Shown in pieces: positions 1-6,591 of a stretch of DNA of 64,000 nucleotides. The stretch is from assembly GCF_009914755.1 (NCBI RefSeq), contig NC_060940.1; one strand, written 5' to 3'. The stretch comes from the human T2T-CHM13v2.0 reference genome, Homo sapiens. Every line of letters starts with the position of its first letter. Within the stretch, counting starts at the first letter, position 1. Both the position numbers and the translations under genes were made by a program. The notes beneath the pieces are model-generated. The model had not been told where the DNA came from. It saw only the letters and a program-made list of their open reading frames with translations, and searched no databases.

Positions 1-28
1 TGGGCAGCCCTCAGGTTGCAGGACCCTC

Positions 29-98
29 TGGATCTGTTTCCGGCTTGCACGGTGGGCCTTTCCAGCAGCTCCGGAATGCTCCCGATGAGCTCAGCTTC
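29..98 (-). pseudogene. TEKT4-like pseudo-exon 2
   Basis: Acceptor ctcctcatccag|GAAGCTGAGCTCATC (AG at 100-99). Encodes EAELIGSIPELLERPTVQA, with an apparent 1-nt deletion before CAG ATC. The donor looks mutated (GAGGGT), so the 3' boundary is approximate. Confidence 0.8.
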
Positions 99-1295
99 CT
101 GGATGAGGAGGCGCCCCTGAGCCCCAGACCCCGGAACCTGCCAAGGGTCCCAGGAGGCCCGGAGGCTGCAGGCCTTGGTCAGCACTAGCTTACTCGGGAG
201 GAGCAGAGTGTGGGGCCTGAGTCCTGGCTGGGTGTCCGGGCCAGGCCCCACTTGTTCGCCCTCAGGCCTTTCCCCTGGAAAGTGGCACACAAGCCCAGCT
301 CCCTCCTCGGTTTATTCCGGGCTTTTGGATGTTCTTGGTGGGTTGGAAGTGGGGTGCTTTCCTCCAGGGGCCTCTCCGGGCTGCTGGGAGGGTCCCCTCA
401 TGGTAGTTCCCACGCCCCAGGCTTTGGGGGTCATACCTGCCGTTCCCCGTGGTTCACCTCCCTGTTCCTGCACTGGGCAGGCAGGGCGAGCGAGGGCTGG
501 GCCCGGGGTCTCTGGGCTCAGGGCGGAGGGGTTAGCACGGGAACCACAGGAGTTCTTGAACCACTGAGGGGGTGCAGAGGAGGGGCCTGGGGAGGGGAAG
601 GAAAGGGGAAGGGAAGGCCTGGGGAGGAAGGAGGGATGCGAGGTCCTGAGCTCGGGGGTGCAGCAAGGGAACCCTGAGGCTCCTGCACCAGCTGCCCCCA
701 CCCACATATTTTGCTCATAGACCTAACAGTGCGTTCACAGGGAGGCCCCAGGCTCTGAGAGGTGGCAGAATTCTCCAGAGCGAGCACTGGGGCCAGGATT
801 GGTAACCCCCTCACCCTACGGGGCTGCTTCACGGACAGGTCGTGCTGGATTCGGAAGGGACAGAGCGTTCGGAGGAGAGGGCACTGGGGGTGCAAATCTT
901 TGAGGTCAGGGCTCCATACAGGATGAATGGGTACCAGTGGCCCCCAGCGCACTCTTCCTGTCCACACCTGCAGCACTGACCTGGGTTCCCAGCTCGGGAG
1001 CAGTTGTCCCAGCAAGAGATGCCTTTGGGGAGGTGCCCTGTGGCTCAGCCCCGGGAGCTCAGGGCTGAATGTGCCTGGACTCAAGGGGGCAGGAGGAGGG
1101 GAGGGGCCCAGAGGAGACACAGCTGCTTGCAAGCCAGGTGCCCCTTGGGGCAAAACCAGCTTCTGTGGTTAAGGGGCCAGATTTCGGGACTCAAGGGTCT
1201 TGTGTGCCTGTAGCAGCCACGTAGCTTGTCCACATGAACGGCCAGGCTGCTCCTCTCCGTGGCTGCACGTCCTGGCCACCCCGAGGCCGCAGCAC

Positions 1296-1810
1296 TTTCA
1301 GCAGCTCCGTCTCCACGTAGTCGCCCACGAGGTAAGGGTGCCAGCATTGCTCGTGGTACTGCAGGTTGTTGGTGGCGATGGAGAAGGGCACGGTCATGGT
1401 GTCCGAGGCATGACACAGCTGCGGCTCCGGGGCCAGCAGCAGGCGGGTCTCAGCGGCGGTGCTACCACCTCCCACTCAGGCTCCAACTTCCAGCCGCGCG
1501 TGTCCTACGGCTGCCGCCCACCCTGTGTGTGTGGAGTCCCTTTGTGTGCACTGTGCCGCGGCCTCGGTCTCCGCTGCCCACTGCTGGCTCTCATGCTGCT
1601 GCTATGCCAACGGTTCGAAGGTGATGGTGGCCGGCGTCATGGTTCTGGAGCCACTTGTCCAGCAGGTGCTAGGCCACTGGGAGCCAGCGGTGGCCAGGCT
1701 GGAGGACGTGCAGGCACCTGTGTTTCAGGCCACGTCGCACAGCTTTGGGGGACAACTGGAATGGTCTGTGGGGCCGGCTGCTTGGTCAGGAGCGTGTCCA
1801 TCTGTGCCAT
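1296..1810 (-). pseudogene. TEKT4-like pseudo-exon 1 (ATG at 1810)
   Basis: ATG in ACACC-ATG-G context. In-frame TGA at 1727-1725 where tektin-4 has Arg, plus several frameshifts. Ends CTG CTG AAA|GTGCTG with the donor GT at 1295-1294. Confidence 0.88.
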
Positions 1811-4800
1811 GGTGTCCACCAGGGCCGGGGGAGTGAGGGGTGGGGTCAGCCCAGCCAGGTCAGTGGGGAAGCTCCAGCCACTCAGTCCCAGAGCAGGATG
1901 CGGCTCCCAGTTGCCTGGTACACACCGACGGCCTCCATTACTGGGCACCAGGGATCCCCCCGAAGTGGCTGAGAGAGGCGGCATTCAGGGTGGGCAGAGC
2001 TGCCCCCCAGAGGCAGGGGGTATGGGCTGCTGGGGGTGGGGGTCCCTCTTAAAGGACCAGGCAGGCCCAGCCCTACGACCCCTGTCCCCGCCATGGCCCA
2101 AGCAGCAGTGGCCAAAGGTTCCTGTCACCTAGAGGATCCTGGGGCTGGCCGGTGCCCGGCTTCTGTGTTCCATGCTTGGGGGACAGGCCGTGGGTGGGAG
2201 GTGGCCTGCTGCCCTGACACCTGTGCCCCTTCCTTGGTTTACCCCCTGCTGTTCCTGTTTTGTTCTCTGATCCCTTTCCATGCTGAGCTCCAGACAGTGT
2301 GAACGGAAGGCTCTGCCCACCTGCAGTCCCCGCGGGGCAGAAGGCTGGGGCCGTGGGGGGCCTCGGGTGGGTGTTGGGACCCCTGACAGTGACGGTGATT
2401 CCCAGTATCTGCCACCCCGCGAGTGGCTTCCCTCCCTGTCCCCCGGGGCCCCAACACCAGCCTGATACCACACCAGGACCCCCAGGCCAGGCCCTGAGGG
2501 GCAGCCTGAGCCCCACGCACAGTCCCAGGGGACCCAAGACTGAGGCAGTTCCTGTGGAGACTCTGCCCACTCGGCTCCTGGGACCGCTACCCGAGAGCTG
2601 GGCACCCGCTTCCCTCCTCCTTCCGTGTCCCAGCCAGGGTCCCCCCCAGTCCTGTGCTGTGGAGGCCGCCCCCATGGCCCCCCAACCCCTGGGCCAAGCT
2701 GCCTGGCAGAGTCTGGATGGGCAAGGAGTGCCCCGCGCACCACGTGACCCCGTCCTGGGCCAGGGGAGTCCCAGCCCAGGCGCGATGCCCCCTGTGGCCA
2801 GCAGAGTGTGGTGTTGGCCGCGAGATGCCAGCGGCTCCCAGGCTCCGCTCAGCCAGCCTGGCCCATCCTGTTCTGGGGACCCCCCACCCCAGGCCCAGGT
2901 CCTCCCCAGCACAGGCCCCTGGGTCCCCACCCCCACCCCCTCCACCTCCACCTCCAATCCTTGCTCCGGCCACAGGAGCCCAGGCTTTTCCTGGGCCACC
3001 TCCCTCCCTGGCCATCTTCCTCTGGCATCCCCGCCCATGCCCCCACTGTGGCCCCGCCGTGCCCTCCCCCTGCCCATGCCCCCACTGCATCCCTGCCATG
3101 CCTTCTCCCAGCCCTGACTGACCTCTGACCCCTGGCCCTGACTGATGGGTGGCCGGATCCCCACTCACACACTGCTATGACCACGGTGAGCCCGGCCTGA
3201 CAGCCTCCCGATGGCGGACGTGGAGGCGTGCGCCGCACTCCCGGGCACACTGGAGGCTCCTCATGAAATGTGGGCTTTGGGGACAGCAGTGCCAGGACTG
3301 CAGGCTGACCCAGAACCGGCGGCAGTGGCCTGGGCCTCTTCTCACCGCCCTTCAAAGGTGGGATGTCAGGGAACCTTCCGGGACTGATGTGGCCTGAGGA
3401 CCGTCCTGGAGCCTCGCTGTGACTCGGTTTCCCCAGATGGCTGCAGGCTCGAGCCACACGGTGGCGGGGGGGGGCGCCCAGCTCCACATTTTGTCTTGAA
3501 CCTGCTTTCACTTGGCACCTCCCTGTGGGCTGAGCCGAGCGGAACTGCCCGTGTTTGTCCCCTGACCTGCAGACCCGGGGAACCAGTGGGACCACCCGGG
3601 CCGAGGAGGCGAATTCTGGGCTCTGCGACCTCTCAGCCTCTGCCTCCAGGTGCCCTGGGGTGCGGCGGGGGCACTGCCGCATCGAGCTCCCAGGCTGACG
3701 GGACACAGACTCACCCGTGACCGCAGTCGGCCCTGCAGGCTGACGGACAGGACTTGACTGAGTGCCTGTCTGAGACAGGGGGCTGGGCCCTTGACCCCTG
3801 CAGCCACAGAGCCCCGCAGCCCTCAGCCGGCTCAGGGGGTGAAGACACCCCAGGAAGAGCTCCTGGGTCAGAGCCGCCCGCTGTGTCCACTGTGTGGCCA
3901 GGCAGGCGGCCCCTCCCAGACCGTTTCCCTACCTGCTGGGAGTGGGGCAGCACCGGCCTGGGGGGCACGGCCTGAGGGAAGGACAGAGAGTGGCCGAAGC
4001 CCCCCACAGTCCCCCGCCCCACCTCGTGGGCCTCTGCACACATCCCCTTGGGCAGACACAGGGCCGGGGCCAGGACAGCCCCAGGAACGGGTGCCCCCAC
4101 CTCAGGGCAGCCCCCAACACTCACCTCTCTGGTCCACCAGCCAGAGAGTGGGACCCTCCACCTCACAGACCCCAGGGTCACGGTGTCCATTAGAGCACCT
4201 TGGTTGGGTACCAGAGGTGGGGAGGGCAGGGCCGAGGCCACCCGGGCAGTCGCCAGCCCAGGAGGCGGGACAGTTGTGTGACTAGCGTCCCTGTGACAGG
4301 GACGGTTGGGGCTGGGCTGGCGGACGAGCTGGAGGCCACAGAAGACACCTTGGACATGGGGTGGCCCCTGGGAGGCCCCTGAACCCCATCCTGATTTGCG
4401 GGGCAGTGACCCTGGCCCAGCCTGGGGCCTCAGGCTCCTCCCTGGAGATGGTGTGGCCGCCCTGGGCCTTCCCACACAGGGCTGGTGCAGTGGTCACCCT
4501 GGAATGGCTGTGACCCACACCGCATCGCCTCCCCCAGGACCCATGCCAGGCAGCATGAATAGGGCGGGCCCGGTGAGAAGCCCCTCCTGCTGGGTCCAGC
4601 CTCGCCCACCTCAGTGGCCTGAGGCCCCTTCCTCAGAGTGGCCAGTGGGGAGGTGGGCGCCCATCACTTCTGTGCAGCCTCGCCCCTCCAGCCACCGCCA
4701 AGCACACCCAAAGCAGCCTAGATGAGCCAAGGTCACCGGGATTCCATGGGGGAAGGGAGAGCAGAGACTCAGACCATCTGGCTTCCTCCGACCCCCGGCC

Positions 4801-6591
4801 ACACCCCCTCGCTCGCTCCCGCCTGGAATGACAGCTCGAGGAGCCCTCCCGGCCTCAGAGCAGGTGCCCTTGCCGGCTCAACAGGTGGCCTGGTCCTGCG
4901 CTTTCTCCCGGGGCCAACGGAACATTTTAATGACGGGGATTTGAGGCACCTCAGGCAGCCCTGAGGCTTCCCCCGGGGGTGAGTAGGGGCCGGTCACGGC
5001 AGAGCAAGAGGACTGGGTGCACAGGGTGGCAGTGCCCTGGGCGGGAGGGCTAGGGGGAAGATGAGGGACACCAACAGCCCAGCACATGGACAAGAGGCTG
5101 AGAGGGCAGGCTCTGGGAGGAGGCTCCGGAGGACTTCTTGGAGGAAGAGTCGGCCAGGCTGAGCCTCCATGAACACGGCCCCCCGAGGCTGTGGGAGGGG
5201 GTGAGGGACTGTAGAGGCGGCGTCTCCCTGGCGGCCCCAGACAGCTGAAACTCACCTTCCCTTGGGAAGTGTGGGGCCCCACAGAGACAGGGACACAGGG
5301 GCATGGACGAGGAGGTGAGGATGTGAGTGTGGTCAGGCGGGCAGGCAGTGAGGCTGCAGCTCGAAGTCCTGGCCTGCTGTCGAGGTGGGCACCGAGCCCA
5401 GTTCTCTGCGCTTGGCAAACTGGGCGGAGGGCGGGGCGGCCGACAGAGGCTGACGGCTCACTCCTGCTCAGCTCTCATCCTGTCCTCCCAGGCAGTGGGC
5501 AGAGCTGGGGACCCACGACCACGGACGCTTTTCCGTCTACCCTTGGCCTAGGGAGGCAAGGCTCTGACACTGCACGTGTGACTCAGTTTACCTGCCTGAA
5601 GGCCGGGGGCTGGGGGGCGGTGCAGGCAGCTGTGTGCCTCTCCAGGACTCAGGGCCCTTTGCTGGCCTTCAACAGCAGTTGGCATCCTGGCCCAGCACCC
5701 AAGACGCCCCCACCCACCGTGGTCTGGAGCTGCTAAGTGGAGTCTCTGAGGTCCATGGTATGGGCGGGGTCCAGACCCCAGCCTCTGAGGCTGCATGCAG
5801 GGCCCAGAGCTGTCACAGACTGTGCCCTGAGCTGCCCGCTGCAGAATGGAGACCAGGACAGTTCCTCCCTCCTGGGTGTTTGCGGGTGAAGCAGGAAGGT
5901 GTGCAGTTTCCTCCAGGGAAAGTCCTGGGCGTGCTTGGTGGAGGGAGAGGAGGCTGGGCACGCAGGGCCAGGTAGGGTGACGGTCCCACAGGCTCCCCAT
6001 CCGAGGTCCCCCCGGGGCTATGCTGGCTCCCTACCTGGGGAAGTCCCAGGCCGCGGGGACAAGCCCGACGCCGTCCCATTCACCTTCACCACCCACCCGG
6101 AACCGGCCTTCCAGATACGGCCGAGTTAAACCACGTTCAGAGGGAGCCATAAAACTCCAGGGTGAGATGAGATCACACGCTGATCCTGACTGCAGATCCC
6201 GACTGCAGCGGGAAGATAAATGTCTGAGTGTTGAAGGGATTGGAGGAATCGTTGGAAGCAAGATGGATGGTCTCATAGATATGAAAGTGACTTCACGAAG
6301 AAACTTCTGCCTGGTGGAACGGAGTGGGACAGAGAGGAAAGGGCAGGGGAACAGGGGCAGGGGGCTGAGGCCCAGGCAGGTTCTGCTGCAGCCCACGCCC
6401 ACCCGCCAGCACGCAGGGAAGCTTGACTTTCCTACCTCAGCTGTGCCAGCTGCCTGCAGTGCCTGGGCCTTCCATCCATAAGTCAGTGACAGTGAGGGCA
6501 TGGCCTGGGAGTGAAGGTAGACACAGAACAGTGCCCGACAGGCGGCAGGTGCCTGAGAAGCATTTGTTATCATCGTCACTATCATCACTGT

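What the first reader, a model, noticed from the sequence alone, without database searches (positions are those of the whole stretch)
29..1810. Fossil TEKT4 gene: probably the decayed ancestral tektin-4 locus, head-to-head with CACNA1H
Seen: a two-exon minus-strand tektin-4 homolog with an intact ~1.2-kb GT-AG intron (1295-99), a premature TGA (1727-1725) and several frameshifts. The intron means it is not a retrocopy. No single ORF in the track reveals it. Its N-terminus (MAQMDTLLTKQPAPQTIP) resembles the longer rodent-type start (MAQTGVLLTKEPAPQS, recalled) rather than the shorter human TEKT4 start (MAQTVPPCELP). Known (recalled): mouse Tekt4 lies next to Cacna1h, whereas functional human TEKT4 is on chr2q11. 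Inference: the gene relocated in primates by duplication and the parent copy died here. I do not know whether this relic is already annotated.
Basis: partly seen in the sequence, partly recalled or inferred. Interest (0 to 1): 0.85.

Follow-up and report, generated by a model that had tools for sequence, protein, structure and literature searches.

The report
Dead ancestral tektin-4 gene on chr16
This is the decayed original copy of the sperm and cilia gene TEKT4, left at its ancestral place on chromosome 16 after a working copy was duplicated to chromosome 2 early in primate evolution; it is a tidy but ordinary case of a gene changing address.

Summary
On the minus strand, window 1810-29 carries exon 1, a 1197-nt GT..AG intron (1295-99) and exon 2 of a tektin-4 homolog. 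The TGA is at 1727-1725 and there are several frameshifts.

The relic continues left of the window to about -2425. All six TEKT4 exons are traceable:
- Exon 4 is almost unrecognisable.
- Exon 5 is about 84% deleted.
- The original stop codon is kept.

It is not a retrocopy. A block from window 4424 to -6180 is colinear, introns and flanks included, with C2:95375633-95387706, which holds the functional TEKT4. BLAST identity is 64-80% per block (74.8% over ungapped columns around exon 1) and noncoding K2P is 0.28.

Cattle (SSTR5-C1QTNF8-TEKT4-CACNA1H) and mouse (Tekt4 19 kb from Sstr5) place the gene at the chr16-type site, so chr16 is the parent locus.

The six recent TEKT4 copies are 92.5-93.4% identical to chr2 and exclude the relic. 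Likelihood placement favours a split on the haplorhine or anthropoid stem. A dN/dS of 0.57 fits early death of the parent copy.

RefSeq does not annotate the relic. GENCODE could not be checked. Verdict: a real, unprocessed pseudogene left by a gene relocation, of moderate interest.

The parts
1296..1810 (-). Relic of TEKT4 exon 1. ATG is at 1810-1808. It encodes the ancestral long N-terminus. There is a premature TGA at 1727-1725, further in-register stops, and at least 6 frameshifting indels.
   Evidence: DNA identity to chr2 exon 1 is 69.3% with gaps counted. tblastn gives E 3e-24 to 9e-26.
99..1295 (-). Intron 1 of the relic, 1197 nt. GT is at 1295-1294 and AG at 100-99. It is colinear with intron 1 of chr2 TEKT4, which is 1443 nt.
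   Evidence: The blastn block L010 2435-4394 to window 2510-538 has 68.8% identity.
29..98 (-). Relic of TEKT4 exon 2: 70 nt against 71 in chr2, with one 1-nt deletion. The donor site is GA instead of GT at 28-27.
   Evidence: Identity is 74.4% over 117 aligned columns.
1..28 (-). Start of intron 2. The relic runs out of the window to the left here. The parts outside the window, in window-style coordinates read in L009 (= C16:1106001-1116000), are:
- exon 3 at -300..-430, with 4 frameshifting deletions and an in-register TGA at human codon 199;
- exon 4 at about -1105..-1356, 58% identity and nearly erased;
- the exon 5 remnant at -2027..-2051, the first 25 of 155 nt, where ~0.8 kb of chr2 sequence has only ~20 nt in its place;
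- exon 6 at -2211..-2425, with 3 frameshifting indels and the original TGA kept;
- the colinear 3' flank down to about -6180, ~1.2 kb short of C1QTNF8.
- Exon 3: 71.4% identity over 185 columns.
- Exon 6: 77.6% identity over 250 columns, tblastn E 5e-15 to 6e-13.
- Exon 4: score 52 against shuffles of 27.8 +/- 4.6 (0 of 200 reach it).
1811..4424 (-). 5' flank (former promoter region) of the relic. It is colinear with the 2.5 kb upstream of chr2 TEKT4. Window ~4424-4430 is the upstream edge of the duplicated block.
   Evidence: blocks at 66-86% identity. Beyond this edge only Alu matches were found.

Best explanation
This is the dead parental copy of TEKT4, an unprocessed pseudogene sitting at the ancestral mammalian TEKT4 position between C1QTNF8 and CACNA1H on 16p13.3.

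Early in primate evolution a genomic segment of about 10.6 kb (12.1 kb in its present chr2 form) was copied as DNA to what is now 2q11.1 (C2:95.38 Mb). The segment held the whole six-exon gene, ~2.6 kb of upstream sequence and ~3.7 kb of downstream sequence. The most likely time is on the haplorhine or anthropoid stem.

The daughter copy kept the function. The parent lost constraint soon afterwards and has since drifted. It has accumulated stop codons, at least 14 frameshifting indels, a broken exon 2 donor, near-erasure of exon 4 and a ~0.8-kb deletion that removed most of exon 5. The net effect is a relocation of the functional gene.

Shown here:
- homology to tektin-4;
- colinearity with the chr2 gene, introns and flanks included;
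- the disabling lesions;
- the age relative to the recent copies;
- outgroup gene order, taken from papers.

Inferred:
- the direction of copying, from mouse and cattle gene order;
- the date;
- early death of the parent, from dN/dS;
- lack of any present function.
For: Homology:
- PDB hits are to tektin-4.
- All named proteins among the 120 listed hits to the chr2 exon 1 are tektin or tektin-4; a minority carry no name or only 'hypothetical' or 'unnamed' labels.

DNA-level copy:
- A 10-kb chr2 TEKT4 locus aligns colinearly with chr16 through promoter, introns and 3' flank.
- In an 80 kb by 104 kb comparison the colinear chain is confined to C2:95375633-95387706 against window 4424..-6180. Only Alus match outside it.
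- All six exons are found in order, with splice sites mostly kept.

Death of the copy:
- 5 in-register premature stops.
- Frameshifts and a lost donor site.
- Decay of exon 4 and deletion of exon 5.
- 174 of 289 comparable codons (60%) are identical to human TEKT4.

Parent locus:
- Cattle BTA25 has the order SSTR5, C1QTNF8, TEKT4, CACNA1H.
- Mouse Tekt4 is 19 kb from Sstr5.
- This is the same order and spacing as SSTR5, C1QTNF8, relic and CACNA1H here (hub table).

Age:
- Noncoding K2P is 0.281 over 7891 sites, and 0.242 at non-CpG sites.
- The chr2 locus differs from the chr21 and chr22 copies by about 8.6%.
- On a fixed species tree the best attachment of the relic is the stem of Anthropoidea. 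Carlito or the haplorhine stem are 0.4 lnL worse.
- These attachments are rejected by AU: sister to Homo (p 0.0018), stem Catarrhini, Cebus, Euarchonta, Glires, Euarchontoglires, Laurasiatheria and Boreoeutheria (all p < 0.05).
- At 14 sites where anthropoid TEKT4 is derived, the relic has the derived state at 6, the ancestral state at 5 and another state at 3. This is as expected for a split part-way along that stem.

Early death:
- dN/dS between relic and chr2 gene is 0.57 (dS 0.42, dN 0.24, 270 codons). That is close to the ~0.6 expected if one copy was neutral throughout and the other constrained.
Against: - The protein data alone are weak on position. In the free ML tree the relic has a 1.05 branch, sits in an open fork with lemurs and anthropoids (80/76) and has odd composition.
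- Holding the relic with apes is not rejected (p-AU 0.186). On the fixed tree, attachments to apes, African apes, OWM, Strepsirrhini, Primates and Primatomorpha are also not rejected (p-AU 0.13-0.27).
- Exclusion of a recent origin therefore rests on DNA divergence and on the N-terminal 12 codons, not on the protein tree.
- Exon divergence (K2P 0.35 at all sites, 0.29 at non-CpG sites) is higher, not lower, than noncoding divergence (0.28 and 0.24). I put this down to CpG-rich exons, the doubtful exon 4 alignment and the fact that only alignable noncoding DNA is counted. This was not tested.
- No other primate genome could be examined, so it is not shown where TEKT4 lies in lemurs, tarsier or monkeys.
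- Mouse adjacency to Cacna1h itself was not seen in a paper, only adjacency to Sstr5.
- Transcription or regulatory use of the relic was not tested.
Confidence: 0.88

Rival explanations
1. The chr16 sequence is the daughter. On this view TEKT4 was always at the chr2 site, and a copy was inserted next to C1QTNF8 and then decayed.
For: The two loci are simply colinear. Colinearity by itself does not give a direction.
Against: Cattle and mouse have their functional TEKT4 beside SSTR5 and C1QTNF8, at the chr16-type position, with the same order and similar spacing. The chr2 block is bounded on both sides by sequence with no chr16 counterpart, as expected of an insert. The chr2 site, close to the centromere by my recollection of the map, is a typical acceptor of duplicated segments.
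Confidence: 0.03
2. The duplication is older than primates. On this view both copies existed in early Euarchontoglires or Boreoeutheria, with rodents and cattle losing the chr2-type copy and anthropoids losing the chr16-type copy.
For: Divergence is large (noncoding K2P 0.28, dS 0.42). The protein tree is poorly resolved. A third, equally old fragment exists at C2:130.75 Mb.
Against: - Attachments of the relic at or below Euarchonta are rejected by AU (p 0.006-0.042).
- The relic lies inside a starred Euarchontoglires clade (99/91*).
- It shares derived residues with all primates (site 221), with haplorhines (site 111) and with anthropoids (sites 41, 236).
- High GC (62-68%) and CpG decay can raise the local rate.
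Confidence: 0.06
3. It is one more of the recent TEKT4P-type segmental-duplication copies that spread from chr2 to pericentromeric and acrocentric regions.
For: Six such copies exist in this genome, on C13, C14, C15, C21, C22 and C24. The protein-only test does not reject relic plus apes.
Against: - Those copies are 92.5-93.4% identical to chr2 and form a 100* clade with it. The relic is 74-75% identical over the same 3.2 kb.
- The relic keeps the 12 N-terminal codons that Homo, Pan and Gorilla TEKT4 lack.
- Sister-to-Homo placement is rejected (p-AU 0.0018).
Confidence: 0.01
4. It is a processed retrocopy, or a chance GC-rich resemblance, or a relic of another tektin paralog.
For: The Pfam match of the best fragment is below the gathering score (18.9 against 34.3 bits, E 7e-4). 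The other 5 fragments gave no Pfam match. The region is GC-rich with long meaningless ORFs.
Against: Introns 1-5 and both flanks align with the chr2 gene. Of 5 PDB hits, 3 are named Tektin-4, the other two are chains named only 'Tektin', and no chain named as another numbered tektin reached E<=1. tblastn E values go down to 9e-26.
Confidence: 0.01

Closest known systems
Human TEKT4 (functional gene at C2:95.378-95.383 Mb, 2q11.1 by recall of the map)
   Same: Six coding exons in the same order, the same splice phases where still readable, and homologous introns, promoter and 3' flank.
   Different: The chr2 gene has an intact 435-codon frame identical to protein P0001. The relic has stops, frameshifts, a lost donor, a decayed exon 4 and a deleted exon 5. 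BLAST identity is 64-80% per colinear block, and 74.8% over ungapped columns of the 3.2-kb region around exon 1. The relic keeps the 12 N-terminal codons lost in African apes and human.
DPY19L2 / DPY19L2P1 gene relocation (Carson, Cheung and Scherer 2006, PMC1475853; abstract read)
   Same: [quoted passage not shown] The locus syntenic to mouse holds a pseudogene, so the ancestral copy was silenced and the descendant kept.
   Different: That case lies within young low-copy repeats on chromosomes 7 and 12. The TEKT4 event is much older, far below the about 90% identity by which segmental duplications are usually catalogued (threshold recalled). It moved a single ~11-kb gene-sized block between chromosomes.
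TEKT4P-type copies on acrocentric short arms and C24 (TEKT4P2 is named in 21 of the 24 papers listed; only the listing was seen)
   Same: They are DNA-level, intron-containing copies of TEKT4.
   Different: They are daughters of the chr2 gene, 92.5-93.4% identical to it and ~91.4% over 9-9.5 kb. The relic is the parent of the chr2 gene and three to four times more diverged.
Unitary pseudogenes (lost genes with no functional copy, such as GULOP; recalled)
   Same: An unprocessed pseudogene at the position where other mammals have a working gene.
   Different: Here the function was not lost, because a duplicate elsewhere carries it. This is relocation rather than gene loss.

Membership tests
Tektin family (Pfam PF03148), tektin-4 subfamily | Significant sequence similarity to tektins, with tektin-4 as the best match | tested here: met
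   - PDB phmmer: best hit human Tektin-4, E 2.6e-11. Of 5 hits, 3 are named Tektin-4 and the other two only 'Tektin'.
- tblastn with 4 TEKT4 orthologs: E down to 9e-26.
- Pfam Tektin hit for the best fragment only, at 18.9 bits. That is below the 34.3 cut-off, as expected for a 94-aa broken piece. The other 5 of the 6 fragments gave no Pfam match.
Positional ortholog of mammalian TEKT4 | Same neighbours and order as TEKT4 in outgroup mammals | tested here: met
   - Cattle: SSTR5, C1QTNF8, TEKT4, CACNA1H on BTA25 (PMC12071107 tables; PMC7500205).
- Mouse: Tekt4 is 19 kb from Sstr5 (PMC3008721).
- Here: SSTR5, C1QTNF8, relic, CACNA1H (hub table).

This rests on papers' tables and text, not on genome alignments.
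Positional ortholog of mammalian TEKT4 | Conserved six-exon structure | tested here: met
   All six exon positions were found in order against the chr2 gene. Exon 4 is marginal and only 25 of 155 nt of exon 5 remain.
Unprocessed (duplicated-type) pseudogene | Introns and flanking DNA retained | tested here: met
   Intron 1 has GT..AG, and blocks are colinear through all introns and 2.6 kb plus 3.7 kb of flanks.
Unprocessed (duplicated-type) pseudogene | Frame-disrupting lesions that exclude a full-length protein | tested here: met
   5 in-register stops, at least 14 frameshifting indels and a GT-to-GA donor change, and the exon 5 deletion.
Unprocessed (duplicated-type) pseudogene | No transcription or translation of a functional product | not testable with these tools
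   No expression data are available here.
Processed retrocopy | Absence of introns, poly(A) tail, no flank homology | tested here: not met
   Introns and flanks are present.
Catalogued human segmental duplication | At least about 90% identity over at least 1 kb (threshold recalled) | tested here: not met
   BLAST identity is 64-80% per colinear block and 74.8% over ungapped columns around exon 1. It works like an old duplicative transposition but is too diverged to be listed as a segmental duplication.

The most novel reading that the evidence does not exclude
Human TEKT4 is a relocated gene, and every step of the move is still readable in one genome.

- A single gene-sized block of ~11 kb was transposed as DNA from 16p13.3 into the chr2 pericentromeric region on the haplorhine or anthropoid stem. 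That is roughly 45-70 million years ago on recalled clock values.
- The parent died almost at once.
- The daughter later seeded the acrocentric and C24 copies.

If so, this is one of the oldest traceable pericentromeric duplicative transpositions that replaced its parent gene. It is invisible to segmental-duplication catalogues because identity is only about 70-75%. It is not annotated in RefSeq, and no paper describing it turned up in my searches. It also predicts that lemurs keep TEKT4 at the CACNA1H site while all monkeys and apes carry this relic.
Probability: 0.55. Interest if true: 0.5.

Novelty: new member of a known kind. Interest (0 to 1): 0.4.

Why it matters

It supplies a missing pseudogene annotation in the C1QTNF8-CACNA1H interval.

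It also gives a clean, datable example of gene relocation by DNA duplication and loss of the parent. This matters in three ways:
- Synteny-based gene-age methods could mistake such a relocated gene for a new primate gene.
- Studies of regulatory change after a move can use it, because the gene took only ~2.6 kb of upstream DNA with it.
- It bears on the early history of pericentromeric duplication in primates.

It has no evident medical weight.

Tried and rejected
- Pfam on six frame fragments: only one weak Tektin hit below threshold, so Pfam alone would not have revealed the relic.
- Pfam on four long ORFs on both strands of 518-3164: nothing. They are by-products of 63-71% GC.
- Free protein ML tree and AU test of relic plus apes: too little signal to place the long branch. 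The AU test did not reject (p 0.186). I replaced this with a fixed-species-tree attachment scan and with DNA distances.
- Strict synapomorphy filter: it found only 8 sites and missed known ones, because single species differ. It was loosened.
- Exon 4 at the protein level: no convincing alignment in any frame, with best local BLOSUM62 score 28.
- Alu-mediated mechanism: an Alu lies ~170 bp beyond the downstream chr2 edge, but the nearest one upstream is ~1.8 kb away. No claim is made.
- Literature searches for a prior description of the chr16 relic found none:
  - TEKT4 with CACNA1H;
  - with pseudogene and segmental duplication (0 papers);
  - with 16p13.3 (2 unrelated clinical papers);
  - TEKT4P1/2/3;
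  - tektin, synteny and TEKT4;
  - TEKT4 with C1QTNF8 or SSTR5.
- GenTree paper: TEKT4 is absent from the main text and from the 3 supplementary files that could be searched. One file could not be searched.
Full report
**1. The observation**

  - An ATG at 1810-1808 opens MAQMDTLLTKQPAPQTIP.
  - After frame changes, stretches follow that match the N-terminal third of tektin-4. They end in ...ETELLK at 1296.
  - Then come GT at 1295-1294 and AG at 100-99, and exon 2 starts at 98.
  - TGA at 1727-1725 lies where the chr2 gene has the codon for Arg19.
- The 94-aa frame 1191-1475(-) gave 5 PDB hits at E<=1.
  - Three are named Tektin-4 (human 7ung_D0 E 2.6e-11, mouse 8i7o E 5.4e-10, bovine 7rro E 3e-8).
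  - One is a 447-aa chain named Tektin.
  - One is a 462-aa Tektin at E 0.27.
  - No chain named as another numbered tektin reached E<=1.
- The 41-aa frame 1476-1601(-) hit the same four tektin chains, three of them named Tektin-4.
- Pfam gave only a sub-threshold Tektin hit for one of six fragments.

**2. The whole relic**

- The window is G000:C16:1116001-1180000, and the genome is held. I fetched the 10 kb to its left (L009) and the chr2 TEKT4 locus (L010).
- tblastn of human, baboon, galago and horse TEKT4 found exon 1 (E 3e-24 to 9e-26). It also found the last exon at window -2206..-2408, split over three frames (E 5e-15 to 6e-13).
- I derived the six coding exons of the chr2 gene. Spliced together they give protein P0001 exactly.
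- I then aligned each chr2 exon to chr16.

| Exon | Window coordinates | State |
|---|---|---|
| 1 | 1810-1296 | 69% identity with gaps counted |
| 2 | 98-29 | 74% identity; donor is GA, not GT |
| 3 | -300..-430 | 71% identity |
| 4 | about -1105..-1356 | 58% identity; see below |
| 5 | -2027..-2051 | only the acceptor and the first 25 of 155 nt remain |
| 6 | -2211..-2425 | 78% identity; original TGA kept |

- Exon 4 detail: the exon-only score is 52 against shuffles of 27.8 +/- 4.6, and 0 of 200 shuffles reach it. Only the 3' end and donor are clearly homologous.
- Exon 5 detail: about 0.8 kb of chr2 sequence is represented by ~20 nt in chr16.
- Read in the human codon register, there are 5 premature stops, at codons 19, 38, 64, 96 and 199. 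174 of 289 comparable codons (60%) are identical to human TEKT4.
- Frameshifting indels:
  - 6 in exon 1 beyond the ambiguous first ~60 nt;
  - 1 in exon 2;
  - 4 in exon 3;
  - 3 in exon 6.

**3. It is a DNA-level duplicate of the chr2 gene, or rather the reverse**

- blastn of the 10-kb chr2 locus against chr16 gives one colinear chain through promoter, all introns and the 3' flank. Identity is 69-84% per block.
- I compared 80 kb of chr2 with 104 kb of chr16. The chain runs from C2:95375633 to 95387706 against window 4424 to -6180. Everything else that matches is Alu.
- So one block of ~10.6 kb (chr16) or ~12.1 kb (chr2), holding only TEKT4, is shared.
- The direction comes from outgroups.
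  - In cattle, two GWAS papers list SSTR5, C1QTNF8 and TEKT4 around one BTA25 marker. The distances put TEKT4 ~5.7 kb beyond C1QTNF8, with CACNA1H at the next marker (PMC12071107 tables; PMC7500205 passages).
  - In mouse, a Tekt4 probe lies 19 kb from an Sstr5 probe on chromosome 17 (PMC3008721 passages).
  - The human order SSTR5, C1QTNF8, relic, CACNA1H, and the spacing, are the same (hub table).
- Hence chr16 is the parent locus and chr2 the daughter.

**4. Age**

*DNA distances*
- Noncoding K2P distance between the two blocks is 0.281 over 7891 aligned sites, and 0.242 at non-CpG sites. Both blocks are GC-rich: 62% in chr2 and 68% in chr16.
- The chr21 and chr22 copies are 91.4% identical to chr2 over 9.1-9.5 kb.
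- Over 3.2 kb around exon 1, the six recent copies (C13, C14, C15, C21, C22, C24) are 92.5-93.4% identical to chr2 and form a 100* clade with it. The relic is 74-75% identical.
- The relic keeps the 12 N-terminal codons. Of 37 aligned orthologs, only Homo, Pan, Gorilla and two lemur models lack them.

*Protein trees*
- In the free ML tree the relic falls inside Euarchontoglires (99/91*) and outside crown anthropoids (88/88). Its branch length is 1.05 and local resolution is poor.
- Holding the relic with apes is not rejected (p-AU 0.186).
- On a fixed species tree I attached the relic at 17 positions.

| Attachment | Delta lnL | p-AU |
|---|---|---|
| Stem of Anthropoidea (best) | 0 | 0.90 |
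| Carlito or stem of Haplorhini | 0.4 | about 0.52 |
| Strepsirrhini, Primates, Primatomorpha | 4.95 | about 0.13 |
| Apes, African apes, OWM | 5.1-5.9 | 0.13-0.27 |
| Sister to Homo (rejected) | 15.0 | 0.0018 |
| Stem Catarrhini, Cebus, Euarchonta, Glires, Euarchontoglires, Laurasiatheria, Boreoeutheria (rejected) | 6.0-7.8 | 0.006-0.042 |

*Single characters*
- At 14 sites where anthropoid TEKT4 differs from the non-primate consensus, the relic has:
  - the derived state at 6 sites (41, 90, 111, 221, 234, 236);
  - the ancestral state at 5 sites (42, 77, 406, 407, 428);
  - another state at 3 sites.

*Conclusion on age*
- The split most likely lies on the haplorhine or anthropoid stem. A somewhat earlier primate date is not excluded.
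- With recalled genome-average rates, 0.12-0.14 substitutions per lineage would mean roughly 45-70 million years. The local rate is unknown.

**5. When the parent died**

- dN/dS between relic and chr2 gene is 0.57 (dS 0.42, dN 0.24, 270 codons).
- About 0.6 is expected if one lineage was neutral for the whole time and the other constrained.
- So the parent probably lost function soon after the duplication. This is an inference.

**6. What it is**

- It is an unprocessed pseudogene marking the ancestral address of a relocated gene.
- The closest described precedent I found is DPY19L2/DPY19L2P1 (PMC1475853, abstract).
- It is not a retrocopy, not another tektin, and not one of the recent TEKT4P copies.
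- At about 70-75% identity it lies far below the usual threshold for cataloguing segmental duplications (threshold recalled). That may be why it has escaped notice.

**7. Is it known?**

- RefSeq on T2T has no gene row over it (hub table).
- Seven literature searches found no description.
- The GenTree paper does not mention TEKT4 in its text or in the three searchable supplements. One file could not be searched.
- GENCODE and Ensembl pseudogene tracks and synteny nets could not be consulted, so prior annotation cannot be excluded.

**8. Limits**

- No other primate genome was available, so the date and the prediction for lemurs are untested.
- Exon divergence exceeding noncoding divergence is explained only by argument.
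- Expression was not tested.

Noticed in passing
L011 (G000:C2:130741001-130751000), about 130747580-130749440 on the minus strand: A third, old, partial TEKT4 copy of ~1.9 kb, covering promoter, exon 1 and the start of intron 1. It has stops and frameshifts. It is 72-78% identical to chr2 TEKT4 and 67-72% identical to the chr16 relic. It carries the long N-terminus and mostly ancestral residues, so it is about as old as the chr16-to-chr2 event. Whether it came from the parent or from the daughter is open.
   Followed up: partly
L003-L008, L012, L013 (G000 C24, C14, C13, C21, C15, C22): There are six recent TEKT4 copies, each with a 184-aa open exon 1 frame. They are 92.5-93.4% identical to chr2 and 96.5-100% identical to each other. 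The C13 and C15 copies are identical over the 3.2 kb compared, which suggests very recent exchange between acrocentric short arms.
   Followed up: partly
L010:3107 (start of chr2 TEKT4), compared with window 1810-1757: Homo, Pan and Gorilla TEKT4 lack 12 N-terminal residues that Pongo, monkeys, tarsier, galago, non-primates and the relic all have. This looks like a 36-nt in-frame deletion in the African-ape ancestor. The two lemur models that also lack them may be annotation choices.
   Followed up: partly
window 518-3164, both strands: Several long stop-free frames (216-363 aa) lie on both strands, including one antisense to relic exon 1. None has a Pfam match, and GC is 63-71%. They are compositional artefacts, not genes.
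   Followed up: yes
window 3954-4430: The first annotated exon region of lncRNA LOC107984906 (+ strand, from 3954) and a RefSeq enhancer (4287-4805) sit at the upstream edge of the duplicated block, ~2.1 kb from the relic's ATG. A link to the old TEKT4 promoter region is possible but was not examined.
   Followed up: no
L018, about C2:95387875-95388241: An Alu lies ~170 bp beyond the downstream edge of the chr2 block. The nearest Alu at the upstream edge is ~1.8 kb away. No conclusion on the mechanism was drawn.
   Followed up: no
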